This document shows, in pieces, positions 322-17,629 of a stretch of DNA of 64,000 nucleotides (positions are counted from its first letter, which is position 1; each line of letters begins with the position of its first letter). Source of the stretch: an uncultured Gammaproteobacteria bacterium (GTDB taxonomy: Bacteria > Pseudomonadota > Gammaproteobacteria > Pseudomonadales > Porticoccaceae). The DNA is taken from assembly GCA_947084925.1 (NCBI GenBank), contig CAMTUJ010000016.1:3226-67225 (forward strand), written 5' to 3'. The notes beneath the pieces are model-generated. The model worked only from the letters and a program-made list of their open reading frames with translations, did no database searches and was not told where the DNA came from. Both the position numbers and the translations under genes were made by a program.

Positions 322-1580
322 GACCCTTTCTCCGTGAATAACAAGCGGTTAACGAGTAGGCCTTTGATATCCTCCAGGGTATCTTTTAGTAATTCGGGAT
401 TGGTTGGATCAAAGGGATCATCGCCAATCAGCAGTTCGGGCGGAAGTTTCTGACGAAGAGCGGACATCTCATCGGCTAGTGCGTCCAAAGCCGAGGTATC
501 CAGCTCCATGTCGCGGATGGCACGCAACAGACCGCTTAATGCATCATCACGTTCAAGAACCTCATCAGCAGAGACGGGCGGCTTTGTCTTGATAGAAACC
601 TTCTCCAACCACATTCCTGCACCACCTAGACCCGTTGCCATGGCGCGATACTCCTGTATCCAGTGTTCACGCTCGGCATGCAGTCGAGAATGAGCACCAC
701 AAGCTCCTTTCAGTATCAGGCGCGCAGCGACAGGTCGCCCTTCAGCAGCGTCAAGCTCCCTTTGTAGTGCCTCCCGTACCCGTTCATAGGCATCGTCGAC
801 GGTCTCACTGCCTGTGACGTCCACCTCACAGATCGCCCACCGCAGCACATCGAGATCACGATGCTCGACTTGGATGACTTCGCCATCGTCAACACTCACC
901 AGGGTGCAACCCTTCGGTCCCGTCTCACGAATATGTCGACCCTGAATGTTGCCGGGAAACACAATCCACGGTTCCCGGCATACCTCTTCACGCTTGTGAA
1001 CATGCCCAAGTGCCCAGTATTGATATCCTTTCGAACGCAGCCCATCCACAGTGCAGGGGGCATAGGGCTCGTGCCCTGGCTTGCCGTCGAGACAGGTATG
1101 CAGGAGCCCGATATTGAACAGCTGGGGGTCTCCTGCCGGATAGCCCTGGGACAGATCATCCGTCACAGCCCGGCTGATAAAACCCTGGCCATGGATAGCA
1201 ACAGAGAGCTCCTCCACAAGGACCCTCTCAGGCGACCGGGTGGAAAACACGGTGACGTTATCAGGCAAGCGAAGATGCTTGGTGATCTGGCTCGCTGCAT
1301 CATGATTGCCAGCAATCATGAAGACACGGATATCCGCCTCACGCAGCCGTCCCATACGCTCACTGAAATAAAGGCCGGTGTTGTAATCCTTCCAGTCCCC
1401 GTCATAGAGATCACCGGCCAGGAGCACAAAGTCCACCTCCTCATCGATGGCAAGTTCCACAAGGTTGTCAAAGGCACGGCGGGTGGCGCTGCGGATCTCG
1501 TCCACAGGGGCACCCTCGTATCGCTCCAACCCGTGCAGAGCGCTGTCGAGGTGGATATCTGCGGCGTGTATGAATTTCAC
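318..1580 (-). CDS. SbcD/Mre11-family metallophosphoesterase nuclease (YhaO-like)
   Basis: 420-aa ORF with a GTG start preceded by AAGGA. Calcineurin-like phosphoesterase motifs appear in order: IHAADIHLD, LLAGDLYDG, MIAGNHD, LGHVH. Confidence 0.8.
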   Translation of the reverse strand: MKFIHAADIHLDSALHGLERYEGAPVDEIRSATRRAFDNLVELAIDEEVDFVLLAGDLYDGDWKDYNTGLYFSERMGRLREADIRVFMIAGNHDAASQITKHLRLPDNVTVFSTRSPERVLVEELSVAIHGQGFISRAVTDDLSQGYPAGDPQLFNIGLLHTCLDGKPGHEPYAPCTVDGLRSKGYQYWALGHVHKREEVCREPWIVFPGNIQGRHIRETGPKGCTLVSVDDGEVIQVEHRDLDVLRWAICEVDVTGSETVDDAYERVREALQRELDAAEGRPVAARLILKGACGAHSRLHAEREHWIQEYRAMATGLGGAGMWLEKVSIKTKPPVSADEVLERDDALSGLLRAIRDMELDTSALDALADEMSALRQKLPPELLIGDDPFDPTNPELLKDTLEDIKGLLVNRLLFTEKGS

Positions 1581-1630
1581 GAATCCGTCCTTATCAGTGA
1601 TCTCGCCTTTATTTCAATACTATTTTCCAC

Positions 1631-3739: not shown

Positions 3740-5701
3740 TCCTTACTCCCTCCGCGTTCTGGACGTCTCCAACAATCGGTGCTGTGACATATTCTATAGC
3801 TTCAACAATATAGGGTGGCAGTTTTCCTTTAAGTGCTATGGCAAAAGCAAGATTAGCGGAATTGGTAGCTTTCTTGCGAGCATCCCGATCTTTCTGATCC
3901 TCATCAGAGAGTGCTTCTATATTGCCTCTAACCAAATCTTTTAGCTGATCGGCTAGTATTCTCGACAAGTCGTACGCAAAGTCTGTCTTGGATACTTTGC
4001 TCTGGATATAGGTTGCCTTCTCATTATCATCACCAACAATTCCTTCAATTCCCTCTCTAGACCCCTGAATAGCCTCATAACATTCTCCAAAAAGGCCATA
4101 CTTCGACAAACAAAACTCGAAAGTCCAATCGTCTGAAATCTTCACACATACGTTTTGCCGACTCAAACCATCAATCAGTTCGTCTTTCCGTTGTTGCTCG
4201 TTAGTACAGTTCCTTCTCCAATACCGCTGATTTCGGCCATTCTGCTTCTTGAAGCCATATTGGTTGCTACCATCATCCTTCTCCTCGACACAATCAGGCC
4301 AAAGGTCAAGGTCACGTAGGACACAGACCCTCGTTGAGGGGTACGTCCCCGAGTCTCGACGGAGAAAGAGCTTTGCGAACCGCTTCCACGACCCACTGTT
4401 GTCATACTTAATGATTGAAACGCCATAATTTTCCAGTGGTCTGCCAAGAAGCCTAGCAATTTCCGGAAGCAGAATATTTTCAGCGTCTCCTTCCACTAAG
4501 ACAATTCCTTTTGCGAAAAATATGTTCACCTTTGTCGCATCGAGAAACTTTCGGAGATACACATAATCATCGCCATCCAATTCCGTCTCTTCCGGCTTGA
4601 AGGGCCACGCCCTGCTGTCATTCAACATGATGACTTCCGAGGGATCTGCCTTGGACGACAAATTCGGACTGTGCGTCGTAAGGATACATTGAATGCCTTC
4701 TGGATTTTCGTCAGATTTCATTTTTGAGTTAATGAATTGCAAAAGCTTCATTTGGAGCTGCGGATGAAGGTGCGCCTCTGGCTCCTCTATGAGAAGAAGT
4801 GGAAACTCTTTTTCCACTTCTTGCTCTAACAAGAGAAGTTCTGCTGCCATAAATAATAAATTATGATAGCCAAGTCCGTGCAATTTTCGATCTTCGGTAA
4901 GCGCCAAGCTTAGCCCCTCAAGGACTGTTCGAAGATGACGACGCTTCGTGTTCTCAGGAAGAGTTTCCAGTCCTTTGGTGGTCACCCCGGCAATATCGAT
5001 GAACACGCCAAGTTTTTCTTTGTCCACTTCAAAAATGAGATCGTGAAGATATTTATCTTGAATATTTTTCGCTGATTTTTTGAGCGCAGCATCATCAGCT
5101 AATAGTTGCTCGTTCGCCTTAGCTATGATCATTAGAATGTCGTTAGCTTCATCACGAATTCCCTTTGATGAATTTAATATTTGAGACAGCCTCGAAGCAC
5201 GTCCGGACGAAAGTTCGGTTTCAGAATCTCTAAGAGGTTTTAGATATGTTGTCGCCAGGAAGTCACGAATTTCTGTTTCAACGGGAAGACCATTCCCATC
5301 TTTCCCAGAGCGGATTTCCGTTTGAATATACGGATATCCCCGACGTTCCTTTCCGGTCTTTTTCGCTGTCAACTGAACATATAAAACAGGCCTGCGCTTT
5401 CCCCCCCCTGACTATCAATGTATTCCTCATGAGAAAGATGTTCTACAAATCGGTAGGCATGTCTATCAACATCAGAAAATTTCAACTGGATAGAAAGCTC
5501 ACTGGCATCGTCATGAAAATCGGATTCCATTACATACGACCGCTCGGACGAATTGGTACCGAGCGTATATCTAATTGCGTCAACAAGAGCAGTCTTACCC
5601 GAGTCGTTTTCACCCACCAATACGTTCAGACCTCGATTTAGAGTAAAATCCAGTTCTTTAAATAGCCTAAATCCTATAATCGTAACCCTATCCAAATACA
5701 A
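3723..5701 (-). pseudogene. OLD-family ATPase + TOPRIM nuclease, GajA-like, split into 110-aa and 549-aa ORFs by a frameshift inside a G8 tract (5401-5408)
   Basis: The N-terminal ORF (5369-5701, TTG start with GGAGG 9 nt upstream) carries Walker A GENDSGKTALVDAI. The C-terminal ORF (3723-5372) carries LLLIEEPEAHLHPQ (Walker B/ABC-like), TOPRIM VLVEGDAENILLPE and VLRDLDLW. Reading through the G-run with one extra G gives ...IDSQGGGKRRPVLYVQLTAKKTGKERRGYPY..., a continuous protein of about 659 aa. Confidence 0.8.
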
Positions 5702-5757
5702 GGCCTAACCCTCCGAATTCATTACATACCAGCCTCACTCAAAGCTGATCAGCGAGG

Positions 5758-8700
5758 TCATATCGCTGCACCGCCCCTGCCAACAATCTCCATCAGCTTC
5801 CCATAGCTGGTCACCACGTCATACTTCACGTGTTCTGGATCAATCCTGCGGTTGATCTCCTCAAAGAATTTTCTGGCGCATTCTATTTTCGTATGCTCGA
5901 TGGCGCGCAGCTCCATGGTGGACATGGAACCTTTGGTCTCAGCCACAAAGTAGATGTGCTTGACTGTACCTTCCTTGAAGGAAATGGCCCAGTCCGGGTT
6001 GTAATCACCAACAGGGGTGGGGATCAGGAAGCCGCGGGGCAGTTTTGCGTAAACCACGACCTCGGCGCTGGCATCCAACTCTTTGACGAACTCACGCTCG
6101 ACCTTTGAATCGGTAATCACGTAGTCGTAAATGTGGTTCCTGAGCTTCTCGCTGGCTTTGGTGAAGTCCTGGCTACTCTGCCCTGCGGTGAAGATATCAA
6201 TATCGTGAGTCTCTGCGACACCGTCATAGGTCAGTCGCTCGATGATGATGGTTGCCTTTTGCTCGTTGATCAGGCGAGTCGCCTCTGCCAGAAAATGTTC
6301 CGGGTTCTGCTTGAACTGTTTGAATGTGGCCGGCTGTATACCGCTCATCATTTCAGCGATGGTTTTTCTGGTAAGTTGAGTGCTGTCGGACAACTTTCCC
6401 AGCAAATCATACCTGACGGTCGAGTGAATCGAGGCTTTGTATTCTTCCGTAGCGTTCTCCCGAAGTTCAAACCCCTGGCCAGCCTTGACCTGGTCGTACG
6501 TTGCCTCGCCGACCTGCTCGCCACCCTGGATGGTATATAGCAGTGGAGTCACCCTCAATTCTTTATCCAGCACTCGAATACTGTTGCGAATGAGCTCATT
6601 TGAATCGAACTCCACCCGATATACCGCCTTCCGGTTTATACGGTTCCAGAGTTCCTTGAATTCCCTCTTCTCGAAGTTGGCGTTCAGCGGATTGGTCTTG
6701 GGTTTACGGTCATCGCCCACATTGGGCAACTGAGATTCACTGAATACGCTGTCGATCAACCCGAAGATATGCTCAGCATGAGGGGCAAGTTCGGGAGGTA
6801 AAGCCGCCAGAGTGCCATTGGCTTTGGCGGCATGATAGGTCTCAGCAACCTGATCCACGTCATCCGTGTAGTCGTTTTTCAGCAGATATTTGTAAATCTG
6901 CTTGGCCATGACCGGGGTAATTTCCAGCGTCCCGGTTTCGGTCGATATTACCTTCCCAGTGAAATAGGCCTCATCGGCTTTTCGCGGTCGTGCCGACAGG
7001 GCGTCACTGATCTCGCGTTGCAGGTTGGCCACGAAATCTTTATAGCTCTCACTGGCGACGACGGTCAGTACGTTAATGTCATGCACCGTGGCTGCGTGGT
7101 CCATACGGTCACCGTGCTGATTGACGGACAATCTTAGACCACGTCCCACCTCTTGCCGGCGCGAAATCGTGTTGTCACTGTGCTTGAGCATACACATAAC
7201 GAAAACATTGGGATTGTCCCAACCTTCGCGCAGGGCCGAATGCGAGAAGATGAAGCGGACGGGCTCCTCGAAGGAAAGCAGCCGCTCCTTGTCTTTCAGG
7301 ATCAGATCGTAGGCATCGACATCATCCGAGAGCCCCGCTTCCTCTCCACGGATTTTGAAACTGGGATCAGTGAGCTTCTTGGTTTTCTTATCAATCGAGA
7401 AATAACCATTGTGTGTGCGACCAACGGGTATTTCGGCCAGATGCTTACGATAGGCCTCATTATCGAGCGCCAGTTCCCCCAGGTATTCGGCCTTGAGCTG
7501 CTCGTACTCTTCTTCAAAGATGCGGCCATATTCACCTTGTTCATCGGGCTGACTGTAGTCCCGGTACTTGACCACTTCGTCGATGAAGAAGAGCGATAGG
7601 ACTTTGATACCCTGAGCAAAGAGCCTTTTCTCCTTTTCCAGATGCGCCCTGATAGCTTCGCGGATCTGGATTCTCCGCATGGTCGCTTCGGTCACATCAC
7701 CAGTCGCATCCCCGGCCGTCAACACCTGACCATTGGTAAACTCCACCGTGTCTTTGTTGGCGTCGATCTGGGCGATGACGAAACCGCGATACTGGTCAAG
7801 TTCGTTTGACTCGACAAAGAGGTCCTTGCCTTTTTCCAGACGCTTCACGATGCGCTTGATGCCGTTGCCCTGGCGCACTTCCATCTCGATGCGGGCGACC
7901 GGCGCTTTCTTGGAAATCTCGATGGATTCCAGATAGAGATAGGCATTGGTCCCGGCTAGGCCTTTCACGGCGATGCCGCGCACCGCAATCTTCTTCACCA
8001 GCTTCTGGTTATAGGCGTCCAGGGCATCGAGACGATGAATTTTGTTGTGGGTGGTGCGATGCGTGGCCGAGTAGCGCAGGATCATCAACGGCTTGAACTT
8101 GGATAGCGCCTCCAGTGTCTTTGCCCCTTCCATTTTCTGCGGCTCATCCAGAATCACGATGGGGCGGTTACTGCTGATCACGTCGATGGGCCGGCGCGAC
8201 TGGAAGTCGTCCAGTTCATCATAGATGCGCCGATTATCCTTGCCGGTGGCATTAAACGCCTGGATATTGATGACCATGACGTTGATGCCCGCATCCGACG
8301 AAAAGCTCTCCAGGTGATGTAGCTGTTTGGAGTTGTAGATAAAAAAGCGGGCCTTCTTCCCATAGCTTTCGGTGAAATGTTCAGCGGTAATATCCAGGGA
8401 CTTGAACACCCCTTCACGGATGGCAATGCTGGGCACCACGATGATGAACTTGCTCCAGCCGTAGCGCTTGTTCATCTCGAAGATGCTTTTGATGTAGCAG
8501 TAGGTCTTGCCGGTACCGGTTTCCATTTCGATATCGAGGTTGACCTTGCACCCTGCGCTGGTCACCAGCGTGTCTGACAGCGGCAGATTCTGCCGCCGCT
8601 GGACGGCATGGATATTCTCGATAAGTTGAGTATCGGTCAGTTGTATATCGGCATTTTTAAAACCCGTATCGGTCTCTACCGTACTGCCGATGGTTTTACC

Positions 8701-8826
8701 CTTGACCACCCGGCCAGGATCAATCCGATACGCAATACCGGAAGTGTTGACCTGCCCGGCGAAGCAGTCAACGACGGACTCAACGGCGCTGGTCTGATAG
8801 GGCTGGACCTTGAACTTCAGCTTCAT
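5758..8826 (-). CDS. res: Type III restriction enzyme Res subunit (SF2 helicase + C-terminal PD-(D/E)xK nuclease)
   Basis: 1022 aa. Helicase motifs are [11 protein letters not shown] (I), VILDEPQKM (II) and [10 protein letters not shown] (VI). The C-terminal YNPDWAISF...IYFVAETKG fits PD...ExK. It lies 11 nt downstream of mod, the canonical mod-then-res order. Confidence 0.85.
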
Positions 8827-8837
8827 GCCATGCCCCC

Positions 8838-10910
8838 CTAAATGGACTTCACGTCGGTGCCCGGAGACATCTGTTTGAATATCTGCTCGACGTTGATCTT
8901 GACAGCATCGGACACAAAGCCGTTGTCACGGAAAACGACACGCAGCGGCTCGAAGCCGGCCAGTTCCTTGACCAGCTCTTCGTTTACACCGGTATCGAAG
9001 CAAGCCACCAGTGCGTTTTCATCTACAAAAAACACTGATTTTCCCTGGAGGATTTCTTTGCGGATAGGCAGCGACAGGTCGACACCCCAATCCAGCAACA
9101 CCTGGAAGAGTAGGTCTTCTGGCTTGCGGTCCGGCTTGATATTGTCAACAAAGGCATCGACCTGGGTCTGGTCGATGGTATCCGGCGTGTAATAGACGTC
9201 TGTCATATTCGATGAGTCAATTTTTAGCACGCGAAAGCCTATATCCTTGTTCCAGGCCTCATGGCATTCGCCTCCAAGAATTGCTTTCCCTGCACGGCGG
9301 ATACGTTCCTTTGTTATACCAGCAATATTTAACGGAATTCCTTCCCTTTTACAAAGCCCAATAACTGATTCATATTTTTTGCTCTTCTCATCGATACCCT
9401 CATCAAGTTGGACAGCGATGAAACAACGAGACCCTCCATCTTTGGCGTTTGCCTGCATGACTGCGTGAGGAAATGAGCCGGAGCCTGCAAAGAAATCCAT
9501 GAAAACTCCTTCCCCATACTTATATAGATCAATGCACGTTCGTAAAAGGCTCACTGGCTTCTTCCCATCTGGGAACGGTATACCTCCTTCTTTACCAACG
9601 TTGTTGTAGTCAAAGTTGTCCCAGAATGTTCCAAGCTTTTCCTTCTTAATTATCTGATCACCACTGGCATCTGCGACATCGTGTAGCCAGATCACTCGGC
9701 GAACTGTAGGACTGATATATGTATGTGTTACTTTTTCACCTTTATCCCGACCCGAACGCGGAACGTATTCAACTTCAATAATTTCACCGTCGTCCAGCCC
9801 TCCTACCGCGTCGATCACTCGGGTGCGAATGCTGGTCTGTGCATTTGTATCCGAGAAGATCTGCTTGAAATATTTCTTATAGGCTTCAGACTCACCGATA
9901 CCTTCATCCCGGCATACCTTGCTGATCGTTGTCCGTTTAACGCCTTTTCGCTTGTATATTTCTATATCATTACCATCGCCATCTTTTACTTTGCCAAAGT
10001 ATGTTCTTTCATCTGCTCCCAAAATGATGCTCGTGTACTTCCAGCTTTCTCCAGCTTCACGCATCTCATTGATTACATCAACTAAAGGCCGCTCTGTGTA
10101 CAGGTGCGCCAATGTATTGAATGCCTCAAGCGACTTTGCGAATATTACAATGTATTCGATATTTTTCTTTAGGCGCTTGTCCTCTCCACCTCCAGATGCA
10201 CCAGCAGACACCTTTGCCATCACACTGATGGTGTTGATGTAGTTCTGCTCGCCGAACACCTCATTCCCAAGTGCCGTAATATTCTTCAGCTCTGTATCGC
10301 TTATTGACATACAGATTGCACCGTCATCTGCAAGAAGGTTTCTTGCAAGGCGTAATCGGGAATACATCATCGAAAGCCAATCTGAATGAAATCGCCCGTT
10401 GGCCTCTGTATTCGCAATCAGCCTATTCCCTTTCTCATCTTTTTGATTTGACCTTTTCAGAAATTCCTCTGCGCTCTCCGCAAAGTCATCTTCGTAGATA
10501 AAATCATTCCCCGTATTATACGGTGGGTCGATATAGATCATCTTGACCTTACCGAGGTAAGTCTCCTGAAGGAGTTTCAGAGCCTCCAGATTATCGCCTT
10601 CGATGAGCAGATTTTGGGTGGTCTCAAAATCTACGCTCTCTTCCCGGCAAGGACGCAGGGTCTTGGCGATGGGCGCGTTGGCGGTGAGCAGCGCCTCCCG
10701 CTTGCCAGGCCAGTTGAGGTGATAGCGTTCCTGTGGACCCTCCACGATGGACTCGGACAACTCCTGCCGCAACTGATCAAAGTCCACTGCCAGCTTCAGT
10801 TGACCATCTTCGTCCTGGGCTTCAGTCACGCAGCCGGGAAACAGATCGCGGATGCGGGCGATATTCTCTTGGGTCAGGTTCGGCGAGTGTAATTTCATTT
10901 TTTCCATCAT
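8838..10910 (-). CDS. mod: Type III Mod subunit, N6-adenine (beta-class) DNA methyltransferase
   Basis: 690 aa. Motif [15 protein letters not shown] precedes motif [12 protein letters not shown], the beta-class order typical of Type III Mod. A long variable middle region is consistent with a target-recognition domain. Confidence 0.85.
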
Positions 10911-10919
10911 GATCGTCCT

Positions 10920-11618
10920 TTACTGTGCGACTGCTGACCCACTTACAGGAAGGTGGCGGGTCAGCGTTTCAATTTCTTGTTTTAAGGCGCGAAGCTCGGC
11001 GTTGATCGCCACTTTGCGATTGAATTGTTTTTCCTTGCGCAGGCGAGCTTCGCATTTGTCCAGCTCACGCTGTCTGGAATGTATTTGCTCCATTCTTTCC
11101 ACACAGCCCTGCAAGTCTTCGCCTGGGTGGGCCGGGAAGGGCATCAAGGGCGCCAGCAGGCGCGCATACAATGCCTCAAGATCAAACACCACCGGCAAAG
11201 CGGTTCGAGGTGCCACGCTTGGCAGCCAGGCGCTTTCAAAGTAGTCGCTCACCACCCATTTGGATCTGTCCGCATCGCTGGGGCGCTTGAAGGCCGCGGC
11301 GGCGCGGATCTTTCCCTCGTACCGCTGCTCAAAGAGGATCGGATAAGGGATAGCCCGGTCAATGCACTGCAGTACATCGTATTTCAGTTCTCCCGTTTTG
11401 AGGGTTATGCTGAAAATCTGGATTTCAGGAACGGACTGCGTTCCCTTGAGGTTGACGGTTTCCGGGGCAAGCTTGAATTGCCAAGTGATCTGTTCCACTT
11501 GGCGGACAAACAGATTTTTGACGGCAGCGCTCGGGCTTGCATGTTCGTAAATTTTGTTCTTGGGCAGCACGCGCCCGAAGGCGGCGCTCTTTGGGTAGTC
11601 GAAGAGCACGGCTGTCAT
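10920..11618 (-). CDS. DUF4391-family protein (function unknown)
   Basis: 232 aa. MTAVLFDYPKSAAFGRVLPKNKIYEH...LAPETVNL...IPYPILFE... matches my recollection of DUF4391 proteins. The C-terminal part (RMEQIHSRQRELDKCEARLRKEKQFNRKVAINAELRALKQEIETL) looks like a coiled coil. The start overlaps the SNF2 gene stop by 4 nt. Confidence 0.7.
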   Translation of the reverse strand: MTAVLFDYPKSAAFGRVLPKNKIYEHASPSAAVKNLFVRQVEQITWQFKLAPETVNLKGTQSVPEIQIFSITLKTGELKYDVLQCIDRAIPYPILFEQRYEGKIRAAAAFKRPSDADRSKWVVSDYFESAWLPSVAPRTALPVVFDLEALYARLLAPLMPFPAHPGEDLQGCVERMEQIHSRQRELDKCEARLRKEKQFNRKVAINAELRALKQEIETLTRHLPVSGSAVAQ

Positions 11619-14600
11619 CCCTCCTCCTGACCACTTTCTTGAACAACCAGAAAGGCGACGAGCTCGAAGTCATCCAGCCCGGCGATGGTGTTCACCAGAG
11701 CCGTGGTCTTGCCGCCGGAGAACAGGCTGTCGAGATCCTTTTCCTCTTTGATGTCGATCATCGAGCGAATAGCGGTACTGAGCAGGTCGGAGCAGGCTTT
11801 CATGTCACGACCCTCATCAGTCAGCTGATTGAACAAGCGACATACGGACTGAATGGGTTCTATCTGCCCCTTGCAACTGGAACGTACCAGGTCGAGCAAT
11901 GATTTGACCTCGGTGTGGTTGGCGATAACCTGCCCATCGCCTGCGATATAGATCAAATAGTAGGGATGCAGCCGATTCTGCTGGTTGATGTTGACGCCAT
12001 GGTTGAGGTTGCGCAGTGCGAAGATGACGCCGGGGTGCAATCCCACTTCAGGCCTGGAGGGAACAACCGCATGCATGCCATTGGGCACGTTTGCGAGATC
12101 GCCATTGGTTTTGACATAGTTCAGCAGGTCCATGCGAAAGTCGTTCAGGCCAAGATCAGTGATGGACACACCTGTCTTAAGGTCTTCCAGTTCGATCACC
12201 TCTTCCTGCAGGCGCCGGAGTTGTTCTTTCCGGTAGGATATATCGCTGCTTTTGGCCGTGAGGACGTTGTCGTCGCCGGTGGCCGTCACGTCGGCAATCA
12301 CCATGCGGTTTTCAACCCGTTCTTTTAGGTTGATGTATTCATCGAGCGAGATATCGGGCCAATAGTTGACCAACTGGATGGTTTTGTTGATGGAGCCGAT
12401 GCGGTCGATACGGCCGAAGCGCTGGATGATGCGGACCGGGTTCCAGTGAATGTCGTAGTTGACCAGGAAGTCGCAATCCTGAAGGTTCTGGCCTTCGGAG
12501 ATACAGTCAGTGCCGATCAGCAGATCCAGTTCGGCCGGTTCGTTTGGCAGCACCTGCGCCTTCTCCTTGGCGCGAGGTGAAAACAGCGTCAGCAATGACT
12601 GGAAATCATAGGTTTTCTTCGGTGTCGCGCCTTTTAATGTGGACTGGGTTATTGTGGACTGGGGCGCATCCTTGCCGGTGACCTTACCTGTGTGCAGCCC
12701 CTTTGTTGCCAGAATATCTTCGGCAAGGTTGTTGTACAGGTAATTGGCCGTGTCGGCAAAAGCAGTGAAGATCAGGATCTTTTTATTGCCGTCATTGATG
12801 GGATTTTCAATCTTGTCCAGGATAAGAGCCTTGAGATGCTGTAACTTGGCATCATCCTCGGGCGTGACTTTTGCCATGGAGTCCAGCAAGGCGTTTATGA
12901 CTTCCAGATCAACCTTCAGGTCATGTTCCCATGAGGGTAGATCCATATCAGCGAGATTGATTTTAACCTTGCCGCCGATTTCATCGTCGGCCACCCCGCC
13001 GTTACCAGCAAGGACATCATCATCCTCTGCTTCGAGGGTTTCCAGGCTATCCGTCCAGTCAGAAACGCTTTCCGCGTTGCCTGTAACCTTGTACGAATCG
13101 ATCTTGCTCAAGGTACGGGTGTGGTTGTCTAACAGGCTTTGCAGGGTGAGGCGGAAGGCCTCAACCGAGCTTTCAAGACGCTTGAGCAGATTGGTCGTCA
13201 TCAGTGCCTGCAAGCTCCGTTCGCGGTCTGCCTGCCTGAGCTTTCCTTTACCGCCTTCCACCTGCGTGTCGTACAAGTCTTCATACTTTCTAAGACGACT
13301 GGGCAGGATGTAGCTGATCGGGGCATAAACAGAGAGCTTGAGCAGCGAGAGCTGTTCAAAAATCTCATTGAAGCTCATGACATCCGTGCGCCCGGTCAGT
13401 GGCGAATGGAATGACAGAGGCTTGCGCCGCTCTGGAAACTGCCCTATGTCGCTGGTGTCGTAGAAGGTCTGGATATGCTTGCGCGAACGGGCGATGGTGA
13501 CGCTGTCGAGCAGCTCAAAGAAGTCGAAATCGAGTGCATCCAGGATAACCCGCGCGGTACGATCTTCCGGCGGCAATTTTGACCATTGGTTGAACACCGT
13601 TTGGGCATTGCGAAAGATTTCTTCCACCGATCTGCCGGTGCGCAGCTTCTTGCTGAGATTTTCCGAGTCGCCTTCGTAAGCCAGGGCGAGCTGGTTGCGC
13701 AGATCATTGAAGCGGTTGTTGACCGGGGTGGCAGACAGCATGAGAACCTTGGTTTTAACACCCTGGCGGACGACCTGGTTCATCAGCTTCTGATAACGGG
13801 TTTCCCGGTCCTTGACCGCATCGTTGTTGCGGAAGTTATGCGATTCATCAATGACCACCAGATCATAGTTCCCCCAGTTAACACGGTTCAGGGGAATGCC
13901 AAACGACTCGCCCGAGGTGCGGGAAAGGTCGGTGTGACATAGAACGTCATAATTGAACCGATCCCTGGAGAAGATGTTTGTTGTCAGGTTTCTGTTGTAA
14001 TTCAGCCAGTTGTCTGCAAGCTTCTTGGGGCACAGAACAAGTACCGAACGATTCCGCAGTTCGTAATACTTCACAACGGCAAGAGCCGTAAAGGTTTTGC
14101 CAAGCCCCACACTGTCGGCCAGGATGCAGCCGTTGTAGGTTTCCAGCTTGTTGATAATGCCTACGGCGGCATCGCGCTGGAAATTAAAAAGCTTGTTCCA
14201 GACCAGCGTATCCTGATAGCCCGTGCGGTCGTTGGGCAACACGTCCTCGTCGATATCGTCGAGGAAGTCGCTGAAAATGTTGTAGAGCATCAGGAAATAG
14301 ATGCGCTCGGGCGAATTTTCCTGGTATGCCGACTCGATATGATCACAGATTGCGGCCGTCACATCTTCTAGCTTGCCGGGGTCGCTCCAGATTTGGTCAA
14401 AAAGCTGAAGGTATGTGGATGTAAAGGCCGTCTCATCAACACGGTTGACGATATTGGAAACAGCGTCCCCTTGCTGATATCCCAGATCCACCGCGGTGAA
14501 ACCATGCAGGGGCATGTACGCTACTTCCTGCTCGGGGCCTTGGACACAAGCAAACTGCTGCATTGGAGACTTGGTCTTGTTAGAACGGAATTTAGCCTTA

Positions 14601-14941
14601 CGCCGCATCCACTCCGCACATTCGCGTGCGATGGCACGCTGGGTGAGTTTGTTGCGAAGCTGGATCTCAAATTCGGAGCCGTACAGGCTGCGTTCGCGGT
14701 TGGCCTTGGGGATGAAAAACTCTCGACGTTCCTTGCTAAATTTGTCGGTGACTGCATTCGGGACGAAGGTGGGTGCAGTGAAAATGAATTCCAACGAATC
14801 AATCTTTGAGAGCTCGGCCTTTAAGGCTTCATAGGCATAGATTGAAAAACACGATGCCGCGATCTTCAGTTTGGCCTTGGGGTTGATGGAAGCCTTCAGA
14901 TCGTCGCCCAGCAAAGAATTGATGTTGTCGATAATTTTCAT
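11615..14941 (-). CDS. SNF2-family (SF2) helicase/ATPase with an extra non-helicase N-terminal domain of about 260 aa
   Basis: 1108 aa. Motifs are ILADSVGLGKTFTALAV (I), LVVIDESHNFRN (II, DExH), LMLSATPVNN (III) and QRFGRIDRIGS (VI). No HxK (PLD) or PD-ExK motif was recognised in the N-terminal domain. Confidence 0.8.
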   Translation of the reverse strand: MKIIDNINSLLGDDLKASINPKAKLKIAASCFSIYAYEALKAELSKIDSLEFIFTAPTFVPNAVTDKFSKERREFFIPKANRERSLYGSEFEIQLRNKLTQRAIARECAEWMRRKAKFRSNKTKSPMQQFACVQGPEQEVAYMPLHGFTAVDLGYQQGDAVSNIVNRVDETAFTSTYLQLFDQIWSDPGKLEDVTAAICDHIESAYQENSPERIYFLMLYNIFSDFLDDIDEDVLPNDRTGYQDTLVWNKLFNFQRDAAVGIINKLETYNGCILADSVGLGKTFTALAVVKYYELRNRSVLVLCPKKLADNWLNYNRNLTTNIFSRDRFNYDVLCHTDLSRTSGESFGIPLNRVNWGNYDLVVIDESHNFRNNDAVKDRETRYQKLMNQVVRQGVKTKVLMLSATPVNNRFNDLRNQLALAYEGDSENLSKKLRTGRSVEEIFRNAQTVFNQWSKLPPEDRTARVILDALDFDFFELLDSVTIARSRKHIQTFYDTSDIGQFPERRKPLSFHSPLTGRTDVMSFNEIFEQLSLLKLSVYAPISYILPSRLRKYEDLYDTQVEGGKGKLRQADRERSLQALMTTNLLKRLESSVEAFRLTLQSLLDNHTRTLSKIDSYKVTGNAESVSDWTDSLETLEAEDDDVLAGNGGVADDEIGGKVKINLADMDLPSWEHDLKVDLEVINALLDSMAKVTPEDDAKLQHLKALILDKIENPINDGNKKILIFTAFADTANYLYNNLAEDILATKGLHTGKVTGKDAPQSTITQSTLKGATPKKTYDFQSLLTLFSPRAKEKAQVLPNEPAELDLLIGTDCISEGQNLQDCDFLVNYDIHWNPVRIIQRFGRIDRIGSINKTIQLVNYWPDISLDEYINLKERVENRMVIADVTATGDDNVLTAKSSDISYRKEQLRRLQEEVIELEDLKTGVSITDLGLNDFRMDLLNYVKTNGDLANVPNGMHAVVPSRPEVGLHPGVIFALRNLNHGVNINQQNRLHPYYLIYIAGDGQVIANHTEVKSLLDLVRSSCKGQIEPIQSVCRLFNQLTDEGRDMKACSDLLSTAIRSMIDIKEEKDLDSLFSGGKTTALVNTIAGLDDFELVAFLVVQESGQEEG

Positions 14942-15147
14942 TTGCCAGAACCCTTTTCATTAGGTTCCGCAGCGCCGCCCGCTTCGACCCAGGCATCCAC
15001 CTGGTCTTTCTTGAACTTCCAAAGACGGCCTACCCGATGAGCCGGCATGGCATGTTTGTCAATCCAGCGGTACACCGTGTCATTACTGACACCGAGGTAC
15101 TTGCCTATCTCGTCTACTGATAACCAGCGGTCTTCCAAATCAGCCAT
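14938..15147 (-). CDS. Excisionase-family (MerR-like) helix-turn-helix DNA-binding protein, first gene of the operon
   Basis: 69 aa. WLSVDEIGKYLGVSNDTVYRWIDKHAMPAHRVGRLWKFKKDQVDAWV is the typical excisionase-family HTH signature. The stop overlaps the SNF2 start by 4 nt. Confidence 0.75.
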   Translation of the reverse strand: MADLEDRWLSVDEIGKYLGVSNDTVYRWIDKHAMPAHRVGRLWKFKKDQVDAWVEAGGAAEPNEKGSGK

Positions 15148-15600
15148 TTACGGCTCCTGACGGGCGATGGGGTTCCGCCCTTTGGCGGTGGCATTGGCTT
15201 ACAGGCAGAAAAGCCCTAGCTTGCGATGTGCCTCACTATAACTTGGCATTAGCAGGCTCTCAAGCAGTTTGGTCTGGATAAGGCCACATAAGACCGTTTA
15301 TGGTGGTCAAAACTGAGCCCGAAAGCATTGCTATTCGCAAACGGGGCGCTGCCGAATGTTGCCACAGTAGAATGCACAACAGTGATAACCGCTGGCTATC
15401 CGGTTACGAGAAGGAAGCTTAGGTGCGAATGGGCACTCTTCGTCCAGACAGCGCCCAATTCATGCTGAGCTGTTTTTTATTCGACACTCGACCGGTCGCA
15501 CACAGACCTATAGATATGGCTCACGACCCGCATTACTGGCCTGATCAAATGGACGCGGACACCTTGATGGTTTTCCTTGGGCATACGCAGAGTGGGATTC

Positions 15601-15960
15601 TCAGGGATCGTCGGGATCGCCCATATCAATCCGCCAGTCGTCCTTATCGTACAAACCGACACCTGAGTGACCGTCTCTGAGTTCAGGCTGTTTTTCTTCA
15701 TCCAGATCGGCGTTCCGTACAAGCCATGCCGCGATCAGTACGAATGCGAGCAGTATGGCCAGCCAGAACGTCACGTACAGCAGCACTGCGAACACGGCGA
15801 GCTTCACGATCCAGAACAGCGATCGTGATACACCTGCCGGCAAACCCTTGCCCGCCAACCATTGGGTTGCACGGGCCTCTTGCCGCACGAAGCCGCGCCA
15901 TGTGCGGCCGAGCCACCTGCCGGTGCGTTCTGCGGTTGTGGGATGTGCGGTATGTTTCAT
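15601..15960 (-). CDS. DUF3742-family small membrane protein (ICE backbone gene)
   Basis: 119 aa. AERTGRWLGRTWRGFVRQEARATQWL is followed by two hydrophobic helices (LFWIVKLAVFAVLLYVTFWLAILLAFVLIAAWLV). As I recall it, this pattern is typical of DUF3742 proteins of PFGI-1/ICEclc-type elements. Confidence 0.65.
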   Translation of the reverse strand: MKHTAHPTTAERTGRWLGRTWRGFVRQEARATQWLAGKGLPAGVSRSLFWIVKLAVFAVLLYVTFWLAILLAFVLIAAWLVRNADLDEEKQPELRDGHSGVGLYDKDDWRIDMGDPDDP

Positions 15961-15979
15961 AGTGCTATTTCATGATCAT

Positions 15980-16603
15980 CTATCGTTTTCTGGCACGCGG
16001 ACCGGGATCGAGTTCCACGCCGATCTGGTATTTCTCGACAAAGCCGGGCCAATCCACATGCTCGGGCAGATCGATGTCATCGACCACCTTGACCTTGCCC
16101 TGCGCCCGCTCGAACAACGCGATGCTGGCGGAGGGATAGTTGTTGCGCGACGGATAGAGCACCCCGTCGAACAGCGGCACGCTATCGGCATCCAGCATCG
16201 CATACACCTGAGCGGACACCTGCTGCGTGTGCGTGTAGTCACGGCTGGCCAATTGCTCCAGGGTCAGACCAAAGTAGCCTGCCATGACGCCTGCGGCCGT
16301 AAGGTCAGCCAACTGCAGATCGCCCACCACGCCGACCGCACGCACCAGGCGGCTTTGGACTTCAGCCAATGCAATCGAGCGTTTGCTGTCCCGATCCCAT
16401 TGGTGCTTGTGAAACACCGACTCCATCAACGCCGTGGGCAGATCGCGACCAACATAGAGCACACCATAGTTCTGGGCCGGGGCGTCATAGCGGTTCGTGC
16501 CGTCTCGACCGTAATACAGCGGCTCGCCCCGGTAGACGACCCGACTCACATGCTGAAGCAACTCACCCGTGTCGATGCGTTGCGTGGGAAGCGCGATGCC
16601 CAC
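15980..16603 (-). CDS. RES-domain toxin (NAD+-degrading toxin family, MbcT/ParT-like)
   Basis: 207 aa. It has an R...E...S arrangement (GRDGTNRYDAP..., LPTALMESVFH, VLYPSRNN). The GTG start lies 12 nt after the antitoxin stop, with GGAGGG as SD. Confidence 0.75.
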   Translation of the reverse strand: MGIALPTQRIDTGELLQHVSRVVYRGEPLYYGRDGTNRYDAPAQNYGVLYVGRDLPTALMESVFHKHQWDRDSKRSIALAEVQSRLVRAVGVVGDLQLADLTAAGVMAGYFGLTLEQLASRDYTHTQQVSAQVYAMLDADSVPLFDGVLYPSRNNYPSASIALFERAQGKVKVVDDIDLPEHVDWPGFVEKYQIGVELDPGPRARKR

Positions 16604-16615
16604 ACCGACCCTCCG

Positions 16616-17305
16616 TCAATGCACGCCGAGCACGTTGAAGACCGCCTTCGCCACGGCATCCACCGAATCGGCAGTCACTGCTTCCACTGGCGAACGCCCG
16701 GCCAATCCTTCGAGCGGTTCGGACAGGGCGCGATACAGCGTCCAGGCATCAACTTCGGACGCAGCCTGTAGCACGATTTGGGTCAGTCGCTGTTTCACCG
16801 GATCGAGTTGCCAGTCGGGCAGCCTCCGGCCACGCGGCCCCACGTTCAGCGCCAACAGTCGGCGCGCCTCGATGTCCTTGTAGATCTGCTGGCGCGACTT
16901 GTTCGCCAGCCGGGCAAAGTCAGGCAGAGGTAGGTTGTGCGACTGCTCGAAAGCCTCCAACAACACGGCACGACCGCGCTGAATTTCGGTCTCACCCGGT
17001 GTCCAGCGGGTATCGGCACGCACCGCTGCGGCCTTCCGGGCCAAGGTCTGCTCCACCGTCTCCACTTCGAGCGGGATTTCCATGGACAGCGGAAGTTCGA
17101 CCGACTCAAGGCGTTCCTGTACGAACGCTTCCAGTTCGGCTGCAAAGGCTTGGGCATCCCGAATCTCAACGGTATCGGAGAAACGGCGTACCTCGTCCAC
17201 CGTCACCCTTGGCAGGTGGTCGGCAATGAATTCCAGGGTCTTGGGCATGGATAGCTCCCGTTGACAGACTGAAATCAGCATATTCTCGTTTGTCTCCTGT
17301 GTCAA
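16616..17305 (-). CDS. Xre/MbcA/ParS-type antitoxin (C-terminal RES-toxin-binding domain, DUF2384-like)
   Basis: It sits directly upstream of the RES gene. The C-terminal ...LEGLAGRSPVEAVTADSVDAVAKAVFNVLGVH resembles the antitoxin toxin-binding domain. The start is uncertain: TTG at 17305, ATG at 17281 (AGGAGA 11 nt upstream) or ATG at 17248. Confidence 0.65.
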   Translation of the reverse strand: MTQETNENMLISVCQRELSMPKTLEFIADHLPRVTVDEVRRFSDTVEIRDAQAFAAELEAFVQERLESVELPLSMEIPLEVETVEQTLARKAAAVRADTRWTPGETEIQRGRAVLLEAFEQSHNLPLPDFARLANKSRQQIYKDIEARRLLALNVGPRGRRLPDWQLDPVKQRLTQIVLQAASEVDAWTLYRALSEPLEGLAGRSPVEAVTADSVDAVAKAVFNVLGVH

Positions 17306-17629
17306 CTATGTCAACCGTCACCAGGGGCCTCTCCGCATGGGCGTGCTCAGCCTGCTGCGGAAAAGCCATCGTAAACAGGGCACAGACTGCCTTCCGCTCT
17401 CAATGCGGTACCGGGTGTCACCCCTTTGTCTGTGGCCAGATACCCACGAGTTGTCGGGATTGCCCCATGCCGCATTGATCGTGGCACCCACGAGGTAATG
17501 GCCCTATACCCAAAGGCTTCCGTAAAGGCCAAAGGGCTGGGAAGAGGCAAGGGAACGGGGCCAAGGGGAAAGGCTCTACCCGAAAAGGCCAAAAGGCTCT
17601 CCCGCCAGCCCGTCACTCGGGGTGTCGTC

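What the first reader, a model, noticed from the sequence alone, without database searches (positions are those of the whole stretch)
5758..15147. Five-gene HTH / SNF2 helicase / DUF4391 / Mod / Res operon: a Type III R-M core with two extra uncharacterised partners
**What is there.** Five genes lie on one strand with almost no spacing. HTH and SNF2 overlap by 4 nt (14938-14941). SNF2 and DUF4391 overlap by 4 nt (11615-11618). DUF4391 is 9 nt from mod, and mod is 11 nt from res.

**Why it is odd.** A canonical Type III system needs only Mod and Res, and Res already carries its own SF2 motor plus a PD-ExK nuclease. Here a second, larger motor is translationally coupled upstream of the methylase: a 1108-aa SNF2 ATPase with an extra N-terminal domain of about 260 aa. 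A 232-aa protein of unknown function (DUF4391) is coupled with it.

**Interpretation.** This looks like one machine rather than neighbouring systems. To my knowledge the composition has no named, experimentally characterised defence phenotype, though I cannot search to confirm that. The SNF2/DUF4391 pair could be a second sensor or effector layer, for example against phages with modified DNA or anti-restriction proteins. It could also be a regulator of the methylation/restriction balance during ICE transfer.
Basis: partly seen in the sequence, partly recalled or inferred. Interest (0 to 1): 0.85.

Follow-up and report, generated by a model that had tools for sequence, protein, structure and literature searches.

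The report
Four-gene Type III-like restriction cassette
A Type III-like restriction-modification pair (Mod, Res) is permanently teamed with a second DNA motor whose own nuclease is dead and with a small protein of unrecognised fold, and this four-gene cassette is widespread in bacteria and archaea yet I found no paper describing it.

Summary
On the minus strand lie HTH (14938-15147), an SNF2 ATPase (11615-14941), DUF4391 (10920-11618), a Type III-like Mod (8838-10910) and a Type III-like Res (5758-8826). The gene junctions are -4, -4, +9 and +11 nt.

The linkage is not local chance. Of 56 related loci with enough flank, 54 carry SNF2>DUF4391>Mod>Res intact and in that order. Eleven of 13 further cassette-bearing plasmid loci do too, including an archaeon and Firmicutes with DUF4391 only 22-26% identical.

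SNF2, DUF4391 and Res co-diverge (r 0.80-0.85). The Mod target-recognition domain swaps freely (r about 0).

The "extra" N-terminal domain of SNF2 has a phospholipase-D fold but has lost the HKD catalytic motif, so Res is the only nuclease. DUF4391 models confidently (pLDDT 89) but matches no solved or viral structure.

SNF2-DUF4391 was never seen without Mod. Mod-Res does occur without them, once as a clean natural deletion.

Best reading: a Type III-derived, dual-ATPase restriction system in which SNF2/DUF4391 is a dependent, sequence-blind motor-plus-adaptor module. PADLOC (2023) and the searchable literature name no such system. Verdict: new variant of a known kind. The mechanism is inferred, not shown.

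The parts
15235..15263 (-). Best sigma-70-like promoter match (TTGAGA-17-TATAGT), ~88 nt upstream of the HTH start codon; candidate operon promoter
   Evidence: 10 of 12 matches, the best site in 1500-15800. A 10-nt direct repeat, TGGCATT(G/A)GC, lies at 15189-15198 and 15244-15253. This is a consensus match only.
14938..15147 (-). 69-aa HTH_17/excisionase-type DNA-binding protein; likely transcriptional regulator; stop overlaps the SNF2 start by 4 nt
   Evidence: HTH_17, 1.4e-16. PADLOC mad1, 1.2e-13. MADS1 scores 75.1 bits, below the 80-bit cut-off. A homologue lies upstream in 23 of 68 close loci. Elsewhere it is replaced by HTH_73 or WYL.
11615..14941 (-). 1108-aa SNF2-family ATPase with intact motor motifs; full-length match to the PADLOC 'HKD+Snf2' model
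   Evidence: SNF2-rel_dom and Helicase_C. PDLC01075, 7.3e-128, residues 2-1101. DrmD, DpdE and BrxH matches are only weak. Motifs GLGKT, DESH, SAT and QRFGRIDR are present. It is 69-99% identical among 43 cassettes.
14252..14941 (-). N-terminal ~230 aa of the SNF2 protein: phospholipase-D-fold domain with the HKD catalytic motif lost (predicted nuclease-dead)
   Evidence: AF2 model, pLDDT 66. Foldseek PDB hits are almost all PLD superfamily (33 of the top 33; 45 of the 50 listed): R.NgoAVII 1.9e-4, SauUSI 2.8e-4, Zucchini, NucT, PSS, Tdp1. No conserved H or K in 8 distant orthologues. Distant non-cassette relatives keep LHAKAYIF...GSSNFT, where the window has QQFACVQG...HGFTAVDL.
10920..11618 (-). 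232-aa DUF4391 protein: N-terminal alpha/beta domain plus long helical hairpin carrying the conserved EKQFNRKV motif; proposed adaptor
   Evidence: PF14335, 3.9e-64. No PADLOC or NCBIfam model. AF2 pLDDT 89.2, pTM 0.80. No Foldseek match in PDB (best E 0.04, TM<0.25) or BFVD. No PDB sequence match. The family has 1,824 clusters at 50% identity.
8838..10910 (-). 690-aa Type III-like Mod, a beta-class N6-adenine methyltransferase; the specificity subunit
   Evidence: N6_N4_Mtase. MTase_III PDLC03634, 1.9e-204. DPPYN comes before FAGSGS.
9579..10115 (-). Mod target-recognition domain (about aa 266-444), hypervariable between cassettes
   Evidence: TRD identity is 6-81% (median 19%) and uncorrelated with SNF2, DUF4391 or Res identity (r -0.03 to 0.02). 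tblastn splits Mod into conserved N- and C-terminal parts in all loci.
5758..8826 (-). 1022-aa Type III-like Res: SF2 ATPase plus C-terminal PD-(D/E)xK nuclease; the only predicted nuclease of the cassette
   Evidence: ResIII 1.7e-14, RE_endonuc 3e-34. REase_III PDLC03647, E=0. PRK15483 aligns full length at 389 bits, below the 564-bit cut-off. Motifs [18 protein letters not shown] and PD..ETK are present. PGAP 2026 names E. coli orthologues 'type III restriction-modification system endonuclease'.

Best explanation
The locus is a mobile, Type III-derived restriction-modification defence system with a conserved four-gene core plus an exchangeable small regulator.

**Shown**
- Mod carries a hypervariable TRD and is the only component whose variation is uncoupled from the others. 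It therefore alone sets sequence specificity and, by inference, marks self DNA.
- Res is a complete Type III-like ATPase-nuclease and the only predicted nuclease.
- The SNF2 protein has an intact motor and a PLD-fold domain without the HKD active site.
- SNF2 and DUF4391 form a tight gene pair that occurs only next to Mod/Res.
- DUF4391 has no recognisable fold or catalytic signature.

**Inferred**
- SNF2 descends from the HKD+Snf2 nuclease-helicase effectors of MANTIS/BR-type systems. It has handed nuclease duty to Res. Its dead PLD domain probably keeps only the dimerising or DNA-clamping role.
- DUF4391 is the adaptor that docks this second motor onto Mod-bound, unmodified sites.
- ATP-driven SNF2 translocation then supplements the passive sliding of ordinary Type III enzymes. 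That would strengthen or broaden long-range communication and Res cleavage, for example past roadblocks or for unfavourable site arrangements.
- The system therefore works on the same logic as the dual-ATPase methylation-based systems: ATPase, small partner, methyltransferase, helicase-nuclease, in that gene order, as in MANTIS MtsA-D.
- The HTH controls transcription from the upstream promoter.
For: - **Conserved order.** 54 of 56 loci with enough flank have all four genes full length, in the same order and strand. The same holds in 11 of 13 further cassette-bearing plasmid loci, down to 22-26% DUF4391 identity. These include Methanomethylovorans, Leuconostoc, Weissella, Aeromonas, Paraburkholderia, Shewanella, Mycolicibacterium, E. 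coli, Acinetobacter, Raoultella, Methylotuvimicrobium, Bacillus cereus and Enterococcus. The other two have Res cut or truncated.
- **Co-divergence.** Pairwise identities of SNF2, DUF4391 and Res correlate at r 0.80-0.85 over 903 pairs. Mod TRD correlates at r about 0. One pair has SNF2 98%, DUF4391 95% and Res 98% identity but TRD only 16%.
- **Tight pairing.** SNF2 and DUF4391 are within 36 nt of each other in 71 of 79 loci.
- **Dead nuclease domain.** PLD fold with HKD lost. The protein aligns full length to PADLOC 'HKD+Snf2' at 7.3e-128.
- **Published parallel.** MANTIS/Gao_RL has an ATPase plus a small co-regulator that load the methyltransferase, and an HKD-Snf2 effector, MtsD, that dimerises through its PLD domain (bioRxiv 10.64898/2026.09.23.753747; PMC12839542).
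- **Active-looking enzymes.** Motor, methylase and nuclease motifs are intact.
- **Defence context.** Gabija lies immediately downstream. Defence cargo is embedded at the DUF4391|Mod and Mod|Res junctions in 25 and 22 loci: SIR2+HerA, Abi_2, OLD, YhcG, Schlafen, Fic, AAA_13 and others. The cassette sits on an ICE, on plasmids and on low-GC islands.
Against: - No physical or genetic interaction has been tested. Everything about recruitment and translocation is inference from gene linkage and homology.
- Mod-Res of the same clade persists intact without SNF2/DUF4391. Enterococcus pE035 is a clean deletion derivative. Clostridium pCt3 is a second case. Roughly 147 plasmids have a full-length Res match against 114 with a full-length SNF2 match.
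- Unrelated cargo genes sit between DUF4391 and Mod in about a third of loci.
- Res can be exchanged independently of the pair: L051 versus L053 have SNF2 99%, DUF4391 99% but Res 81% identity.
- DUF4391 gives no structural clue.
- MtsA/MtsB are not homologous to SNF2/DUF4391, so the MANTIS parallel is one of logic only.
- The identification of PADLOC model PDLC01075 with the Gao_29/MtsD family rests on its description and on two papers, not on a direct sequence comparison with MtsD.
Confidence: 0.5

Rival explanations
1. Control module. SNF2/DUF4391 does not attack invaders. It tempers the Type III enzyme by stripping or resetting Mod-Res complexes on host DNA, for example at unmodified sites after repair or just after the element enters a naive cell. 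SNF2 relatives such as RapA and Mot1 remove proteins from DNA in this way. The benefit would be safe establishment and carriage of the R-M on ICEs and plasmids.
For: - The cassette is almost always on mobile elements or islands.
- SNF2-DUF4391 is promoter-proximal, so it is made first.
- The pair has no nuclease of its own.
- The pair depends on Mod-Res, but not the reverse.
- The protein-stripping role of SNF2 relatives is established knowledge. The window protein matches RapA only weakly (NCBIfam 1.1e-14; PDB RapA chains 1.3e-7).
Against: - Deletion derivatives with intact Mod and Res persist. A safety device would be expected to be hard to lose while Res stays active.
- Classical Type III systems manage without such a module.
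- There is no direct evidence.
Confidence: 0.2
2. Two separate systems that travel together. An ordinary two-gene Type III R-M sits beside an independent two-gene SNF2/DUF4391 defence. They are kept adjacent because they act synergistically or share a promoter, without forming one complex.
For: - Mod-Res stands alone in pE035 and pCt3.
- Cargo genes insert between DUF4391 and Mod in 25 loci.
- Res has been swapped independently of SNF2-DUF4391 (L051 versus L053).
- Defence systems commonly cluster, as Gabija does here.
Against: - In about 95 loci examined, SNF2-DUF4391 never occurs without Mod, from 95% down to 22% DUF4391 identity and across two domains of life.
- Order and strand are fixed.
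- The pair contains no predicted effector, because the PLD is dead and DUF4391 has no catalytic signature.
- The components co-diverge with r 0.80-0.85.
Confidence: 0.15
3. Methylase loader. As MtsA/MtsB do for MtsC in MANTIS, SNF2 (ATPase) and DUF4391 (small co-factor) are required to load and activate Mod. On this reading both modification and restriction need all four proteins.
For: - The gene order ATPase, small protein, methyltransferase, helicase-nuclease is identical to MANTIS.
- In MANTIS, methylation needs MtsABC and restriction needs MtsABCD.
- SNF2-DUF4391 always lies immediately upstream of Mod.
Against: - The Mod is a standard beta-class Type III Mod, and such Mods methylate on their own in characterised systems (established knowledge of EcoP15I and EcoP1I).
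- Natural loss of SNF2-DUF4391 with intact Mod and Res should be lethal or lead to rapid Res decay if only methylation were lost. It is compatible only if restriction is lost too.
- SNF2/DUF4391 are unrelated in sequence to DUF499/DUF3870.
Confidence: 0.1

Closest known systems
Classical Type III restriction-modification (EcoP15I, EcoP1I, StyLTI: Mod + Res)
   Same: - Mod is a beta-class N6-adenine methylase with an internal TRD.
- Res has SF2 motifs plus a C-terminal PD-(D/E)xK nuclease.
- mod lies directly upstream of res.
- Specificity varies only in Mod.
- PADLOC MTase_III and REase_III match at 1.9e-204 and E=0.
- Res aligns end to end with the PRK15483 model.
   Different: - Two further conserved genes, SNF2 and DUF4391, lie upstream in the same operon.
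- Res scores below the PRK15483 equivalog cut-off (389 versus 564 bits).
- Res is only ~32% identical to EcoPI-type Res, over 59% of its length.
- No simple-sequence repeats were found in mod, so it is not an obvious phasevarion.
MANTIS / Gao_RL / Gao_29 / BREX-related type 2 (MtsA DUF499 AAA+, MtsB DUF3870, MtsC methyltransferase, MtsD HKD+Snf2)
   Same: - Four-gene order: ATPase, small protein, N6-methyltransferase, helicase-nuclease.
- Two ATPases.
- The methyltransferase sets specificity.
- The window's SNF2 matches the PADLOC 'HKD+Snf2' model over its whole length (7.3e-128) and has the same PLD-then-Snf2 architecture.
- A small repressor can be present (MtsR there, HTH here).
   Different: - There is no DUF499 ATPase and no DUF3870 protein.
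- The HKD-Snf2 homologue sits in the first position, not the last, and has lost the catalytic His/Lys. MtsD keeps H122.
- The nuclease is a PD-(D/E)xK Res.
- The methylase is Type III Mod-like.
DISARM class 1 (DrmD SNF2, DrmMI, DrmA, DrmB/DUF1998, DrmC PLD)
   Same: - An SNF2 helicase is coupled with an N6-adenine methylase in a multi-gene methylation-based defence.
- B. cereus plasmids place DrmA and DrmB directly upstream of SNF2-DUF4391-Mod-Res.
   Different: - The DrmD models match only weakly (144 bits against a 610-bit cut-off).
- The window has no DrmA, DrmB or DrmC.
- DISARM has no DUF4391 or Res.
Hma and other SNF2-nuclease defences (HmaA, Hna, ZorD, BrxHII, ARMADA ArmA)
   Same: An SNF2-family motor acts in phage defence, often fused to a nuclease domain and partnered with a methylase.
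   Different: - Only weak motor-domain similarity: HmaA 1.2e-26, BrxH 5.2e-26, ZorD 2.9e-10.
- Here the fused nuclease domain is inactivated.
- The partners are Type III Mod/Res and DUF4391.

Membership tests
Type III R-M | Mod: beta-class N6-adenine methyltransferase (DPPY motif, then TRD, then FxGxG) | tested here: met
   N6_N4_Mtase 2.9e-25. MTase_III 1.9e-204. DPPYN at ~aa 128 and FAGSGS at ~aa 473.
Type III R-M | Res: SF2 helicase-like ATPase with C-terminal PD-(D/E)xK nuclease | tested here: met
   ResIII and RE_endonuc. REase_III E=0. Motifs [18 protein letters not shown] and PD..ETK.
Type III R-M | Res is an equivalog of the characterised EcoP/StyLTI endonuclease (NCBIfam PRK15483 cut-off) | tested here: not met
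   389.4 bits against a cut-off of 564. About 32% identity over 59% of its length to EcoPI-type Res.
Type III R-M | The system consists of two genes only (mod, res) | tested here: not met
   SNF2 and DUF4391 are conserved upstream in 54 of 56 loci. Two-gene derivatives do exist.
Type III R-M | Hemimethylation of an asymmetric site; ATP-dependent cleavage needing two inversely oriented unmodified sites | not testable with these tools
   Needs methylome sequencing and cleavage assays.
MANTIS / Gao_RL (BR type 2) | DUF499 AAA+ ATPase (MtsA) and DUF3870 protein (MtsB) | tested here: not met
   No such Pfam or PADLOC hits among the operon proteins. Definition taken.
MANTIS / Gao_RL (BR type 2) | Effector with an active HKD/PLD nuclease fused to an Snf2 motor (MtsD, catalytic H122) | tested here: not met
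   The architecture is present, but H and K are absent and not conserved.
DISARM class 1 | DrmA + DrmB (DUF1998) + DrmC core, with DrmD and DrmMI | tested here: not met
   DrmD scores 144 bits against a cut-off of 610. No DrmA, DrmB or DrmC in the operon.
MADS | MAD1 HTH at equivalog score, plus mad2-mad8 | tested here: not met
   MADS1 scores 75.1 bits against a cut-off of 80. No other mad protein in the operon; the mad3 hit belongs to the GajA fragment.
BREX | PglZ and BrxC/PglY | tested here: not met
   No PglZ or BrxC hits. A metagenomic PglZ-DUF4391 fusion protein exists elsewhere, unverified.
DUF4391 (PF14335) | Score above the Pfam gathering threshold over the full domain | tested here: met
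   217.2 bits against a cut-off of 29.9, profile positions 1-231 of 232.

The most novel reading that the evidence does not exclude
SNF2(dead-PLD)/DUF4391/Mod/Res is a distinct class of restriction enzyme that needs all four proteins. A novel-fold adaptor couples a true DNA translocase to a Type III core. This changes the rules of target-site communication, for example allowing cleavage at single or same-orientation sites that classical Type III enzymes cannot cut. That would close the strand-bias escape route used by phages such as T7. The class is widespread in bacteria and archaea and is currently scored by annotation tools as plain Type III R-M.
Probability: 0.35. Interest if true: 0.75.

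Novelty: new variant of a known kind. Interest (0 to 1): 0.62.

Why it matters
- **Abundance.** The cassette is common. The family has 1,824 clusters at 50% identity. It occurs on 53 plasmids and in 10 complete E. coli genomes.
- **Hidden by annotation.** It is currently read as an ordinary Type III R-M beside a "helicase-related protein" and a DUF. Surveys of defence content therefore undercount or misclassify it.
- **Mechanistic value.** If the four proteins work together, the system would be a natural experiment in how a second ATPase reshapes a well-understood restriction mechanism. That question is now central for BREX, DISARM, MANTIS and ARMADA.
- **A function for DUF4391.** It would give this sizeable family, with no recognisable fold, its first function.
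- **An evolutionary step.** It documents a nuclease-helicase effector that lost its nuclease and became an accessory motor.
- **Embedded cargo.** The two junctions that collect unrelated defence genes are also a practical place to look for new defence genes.
- **Tractability.** Native E. coli copies make the system easy to test experimentally.

Tried and rejected
1. **DUF4391 as a PD-(D/E)xK nuclease.** I suspected this from the conserved E64, D86, E96 and K110. A confident model (pLDDT 89) gave no Foldseek match to any nuclease or other fold. A PDB profile search found nothing. Not supported.
2. **SNF2 N-terminal domain as an active HKD nuclease,** as the PADLOC label suggests. Rejected: the fold is PLD but the motif is lost.
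3. **Membership of MANTIS, DISARM, MADS or BREX.** Rejected on missing core genes and sub-threshold scores.
4. **Phase-variable mod (phasevarion).** No simple-sequence repeats in mod or res.
5. **Distant-homologue locus scan.** The diverse alignment A1 failed because it had no conserved stretch. I used the closer alignment A2 instead. The 80 loci are therefore biased to DUF4391 identity of 54% or more. The bias was offset with plasmid tblastn hits down to 22%.
6. **First co-divergence attempt.** Summed HSPs kept only 10 loci. I redid it with extracted ORFs and MAFFT on 43 cassettes.
7. **Literature.** Searches for DUF4391, PF14335 and IPR025503, for Type III + SNF2, and for COG0553/COG2189/COG3587 found no description of the cassette. 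One DUF4391 hit is a typo for DUF7941. Another only lists DUF4391 as enriched in Actinomyces strains non-permissive for the TM7x epibiont. Subscription-only papers and REBASE could not be searched.
8. **Phage carriage.** Only 3 of 50,697 phage records hold a DUF4391 relative.

Full report
**1. Observation**

The ORF list reproduces the five minus-strand genes at exactly the stated coordinates:
- HTH 14938-15147 (69 aa)
- SNF2 11615-14941 (1108 aa)
- DUF4391 10920-11618 (232 aa)
- mod 8838-10910 (690 aa)
- res 5758-8826 (1022 aa)

There are two 4-nt overlaps (HTH/SNF2 and SNF2/DUF4391), then gaps of 9 and 11 nt.

Pfam, PADLOC and NCBIfam confirm the domain calls:
- HTH_17 for the small protein.
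- SNF2-rel_dom and Helicase_C from residue ~250 of the large ATPase.
- DUF4391 at 3.9e-64.
- MTase_III at 1.9e-204.
- REase_III at E=0, with ResIII and RE_endonuc domains.

The translations show intact motor, methylase and nuclease motifs. The best promoter-like site in the region lies ~88 nt upstream of the HTH gene, and no convincing terminator separates the genes.

The operon lies in a 43-55% GC segment of a 62-70% GC window. Beside it are a DUF3742 protein, a TraI_2 relaxase and a tyrosine integrase. A Gabija system follows res directly.

**2. Is the linkage real?**

DUF4391 is a sizeable family: 4,063 proteins in the word-indexed search and 1,824 clusters at 50% identity in the exhaustive search.

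A scan of one genome per GTDB species found at least 483 relatives, and the best 80 loci were fetched. tblastn with the window's proteins gave these results:
- Wherever the contig reaches far enough, SNF2, DUF4391, Mod and Res follow each other on one strand.
- 54 of 56 loci with enough flank have all four full length. The two exceptions are decayed copies.

These loci come from Proteobacteria, Desulfobacterota, Chlorobi, Synergistetes, Spirochaetes, Firmicutes, Actinobacteria, Melainabacteria, Acidobacteria and others.

That set is biased to DUF4391 identity of 54% or more. I therefore also took plasmid hits down to 22% identity and read their annotation. The same four genes, in the same order, appear in:
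- Aeromonas, Paraburkholderia, Shewanella, Leuconostoc, Weissella, Mycolicibacterium, E. coli, Acinetobacter, Raoultella, Methylotuvimicrobium, Bacillus cereus and Enterococcus;
- the archaeon Methanomethylovorans.

Only Acetobacter (Res cut by an IS) and Desulforapulum (Res truncated) deviate.

On 43 cassettes with four intact ORFs, pairwise identities of SNF2, DUF4391 and Res correlate at r 0.80-0.85. The Mod target-recognition domain (TRD) is uncorrelated with all of them, at r about 0. Some cassettes are 95-98% identical in the three other proteins yet carry TRDs only 16% identical.

So three sequence-blind partners travel as a chassis, and specificity is swapped in Mod alone. This is the pattern expected of one restriction system.

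**3. What the two "extra" proteins are**

*The SNF2 protein.*
- It matches the PADLOC model "HKD+Snf2" over its whole length (7.3e-128). It matches DrmD, DpdE, BrxH, HmaA and ZorD only weakly.
- A model of residues 1-271 (pLDDT 66) finds almost only phospholipase-D-superfamily structures, 33 of the top 33 and 45 of the 50 listed: R.NgoAVII, SauUSI, Zucchini, NucT, phosphatidylserine synthase and Tdp1.
- The HKD motif is gone. Eight orthologues spanning 33-75% identity share no conserved His or Lys there.
- More distant, non-cassette relatives from Nostoc and Halorubrum read LHAKAYIF...GSSNFT. At the same place the window reads QQFACVQG...HGFTAVDL.

The protein is therefore a nuclease-dead member of the HKD+Snf2 effector lineage. 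That lineage includes MtsD of MANTIS/Gao_RL, whose PLD domains dimerise to form one active site with catalytic H122. Res remains the only predicted nuclease in the cassette.

*DUF4391.*
- It models with high confidence (pLDDT 89, pTM 0.80) as an alpha/beta domain followed by a long helical hairpin. The family's most conserved motif, EKQFNRKV, lies in that hairpin.
- It has no significant structural neighbour in the PDB or among viral models.
- It has no sequence relative among solved structures.
- My guess that it might be a PD-(D/E)xK nuclease found no support.
- It is the fastest-evolving of the three chassis proteins.

**4. Dependence is one-way**

In about 95 loci SNF2-DUF4391 was never found without Mod. 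The reverse does occur.

Enterococcus pE035 carries only Mod and Res. Alignment with pKUB3007-1 shows a clean deletion running from about codon 25 of the SNF2 gene to the 3' end of the DUF4391 gene, with Mod and Res intact. Clostridium pCt3 also has Mod-Res of this clade with no trace of the pair.

Plasmid counts point the same way, though they are approximate: 147 records have a full-length Res match and 114 have a full-length SNF2 match.

The junctions tolerate insertions:
- 25 loci carry extra same-strand genes between DUF4391 and Mod.
- 22 loci carry extra genes between Mod and Res.
- One locus carries an extra gene between SNF2 and DUF4391.

Almost all of the inserted genes are recognisable defence genes: SIR2+HerA, a UvrD-like helicase, Abi_2, OLD+DUF2130, YhcG nuclease, Schlafen/AlbA_2, AAA_21+DUF4276, Fic, AAA_13 and an AAA+subtilase pair.

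One pair of loci (L051 and L053) shows Res exchanged under a constant SNF2-DUF4391.

The upstream regulator varies. It is HTH_17 in the window and in 23 of 68 close loci, HTH_73 in Aeromonas and Shewanella, and WYL in Raoultella.

**5. Mechanism**

*Shown:*
- Mod alone carries variable specificity.
- Res is the sole nuclease.
- SNF2 has an intact motor and a dead PLD domain.
- SNF2-DUF4391 is a tight pair that depends on Mod-Res.

*Inferred, and my preferred model (confidence 0.5):* this is a Type III-derived, dual-ATPase restriction system.
- DUF4391 docks the SNF2 motor onto Mod-bound unmodified sites.
- ATP-driven translocation supplements the passive sliding of ordinary Type III enzymes, strengthening or broadening Res cleavage.
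- The gene order ATPase, small partner, methyltransferase, helicase-nuclease mirrors MANTIS. There, an ATPase and a small co-regulator act with the methyltransferase, and a helicase-nuclease executes restriction. The proteins in the first two positions are not homologous between the two systems.

*Rivals:*
- A control module that strips or resets Mod-Res on host DNA, so that mobile elements can carry the system safely (0.2).
- Two independent systems kept together by synergy (0.15). This is weakened by the pair's lack of any effector and its absolute linkage to Mod.
- A MANTIS-like methylase loader (0.1). This is weakened by the natural deletion that leaves Mod-Res intact.

**6. Comparison with known systems, and novelty**

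The core passes the domain tests for Type III R-M. It fails two other tests: the Res equivalog cut-off (389 versus 564 bits) and the "two genes only" criterion.

It is not MANTIS, because it has no DUF499 or DUF3870 protein and its HKD is dead. It is not DISARM, because it has no DrmA, DrmB or DrmC and the DrmD score is far below cut-off. It is not MADS or BREX.

B. cereus plasmids place DrmA and DrmB directly upstream of the cassette, a link worth following.

PADLOC-DB v2 and NCBIfam have no DUF4391 model. PGAP calls the proteins "helicase-related protein", "DUF4391 domain-containing protein", "site-specific DNA-methyltransferase" and "type III restriction-modification system endonuclease".

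No paper in the searchable library describes the cassette. That library lacks most subscription journals, and REBASE could not be checked. "Unnamed" is therefore a finding of these searches, not a proof.

I rate the cassette a new variant of a known kind: a widespread Type III-like system with a conserved accessory motor and a protein of unrecognised fold.

**7. Verdict**

- The "one machine" interpretation is supported by comparative genomics but not proven.
- The specific functional guesses are untested.
- Interest is 0.62: a specialist would want to test it, and native E. coli copies exist in 10 of 5,426 complete genomes. However, it extends a familiar logic rather than breaking it.

Noticed in passing
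window 3723-5701 (- strand), G8 run at about 5403-5410: The Gabija gene gajA is split into a 110-aa N-terminal ORF (5369-5701) and a 549-aa ORF (3723-5372) just after a run of eight G. This could be a frameshift pseudogene, a sequencing error or a phase-variable switch. gajB (1631-3739) is intact.
   Followed up: partly
window 15601-21816: The ICE end lies next to the operon: DUF3742 (15601-15960, -), TraI_2 relaxase (17426-19477, +) and a tyrosine integrase (20548-21816, -). A core anthranilate synthase gene follows. No tRNA gene is present in the window. GC jumps from 43-55% to 62-70% at about 16 kb.
   Followed up: partly
L091 (Bacillus cereus pMRY14-0105_1) 1-11970: The DISARM genes drmA and drmB (DUF1998) lie directly upstream of SNF2-DUF4391-Mod-Res on one strand. 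This suggests a hybrid or a link between DISARM and this cassette. At least seven B. cereus plasmids carry a ~44%-identical SNF2 or a ~35%-identical Res. Only the L091 locus was inspected for drmA/drmB.
   Followed up: no
L090 (Enterococcus faecalis pE035) 6603-7050 versus L097 (pKUB3007-1) 1717-7194: pE035 is a clean deletion derivative. The SNF2 gene from about codon 25 to the 3' end of the DUF4391 gene is missing, leaving the upstream region, Mod and an intact Res. It is a natural knockout of the accessory pair.
   Followed up: yes
L003-L082, junctions DUF4391|Mod and Mod|Res; L036 1890-2930: The cassette acts as a scaffold for embedded defence genes on the same strand. These include SIR2+HerA, a UvrD-like 900-aa protein, Abi_2, ORF6N/Bro-N, AAA+subtilase, OLD+DUF2130, YhcG/DUF1016, Schlafen AlbA_2, AAA_21+DUF4276, Fic, AAA_13 and DUF2779. 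One YhcG gene sits between SNF2 and DUF4391.
   Followed up: partly
protein P0258 (795 aa, metagenomic): A predicted fusion of a PglZ domain (463-616) with DUF4391 (605-791) hints at a BREX-like context for some DUF4391 proteins. It could also be an assembly or gene-calling artefact.
   Followed up: no
window 15189-15198 and 15244-15253: A 10-nt direct repeat, TGGCATT(G/A)GC, is spaced 55 nt apart. One copy lies inside the spacer of the promoter-like site 15263-15235. It may be an operator for the HTH protein or a chance match.
   Followed up: no
L083 (E. coli pLAO18) 3154-12215; NZ_CM142798.1 683750-692811: E. coli carries the cassette in 10 of 5,426 complete genomes. Most copies are on 110-180 kb IncFIB-type plasmids next to repA, a LAGLIDADG endonuclease and a 5'-3' exonuclease, a possibly phage-plasmid-like backbone. 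One copy is chromosomal.
   Followed up: partly
L085 (Aeromonas pAhD4-1) 1-3099; L052 18610-18807: Gabija-like genes sit beside the cassette in other genomes too: gajA and gajB upstream in Aeromonas, and a weak GajA N-terminal hit downstream of Res in L052. This echoes the window's arrangement.
   Followed up: no
L037 8492-9592; L084 11302-12003; L097 5220-6524; L089 10338-11723: Several cassettes are interrupted by insertion sequences. A TnpB/IS605 element sits in SNF2, IS1 in mod, ISL3 between SNF2 and DUF4391, and IS1380 in res. Frequent inactivation is typical of costly defence systems.
   Followed up: no
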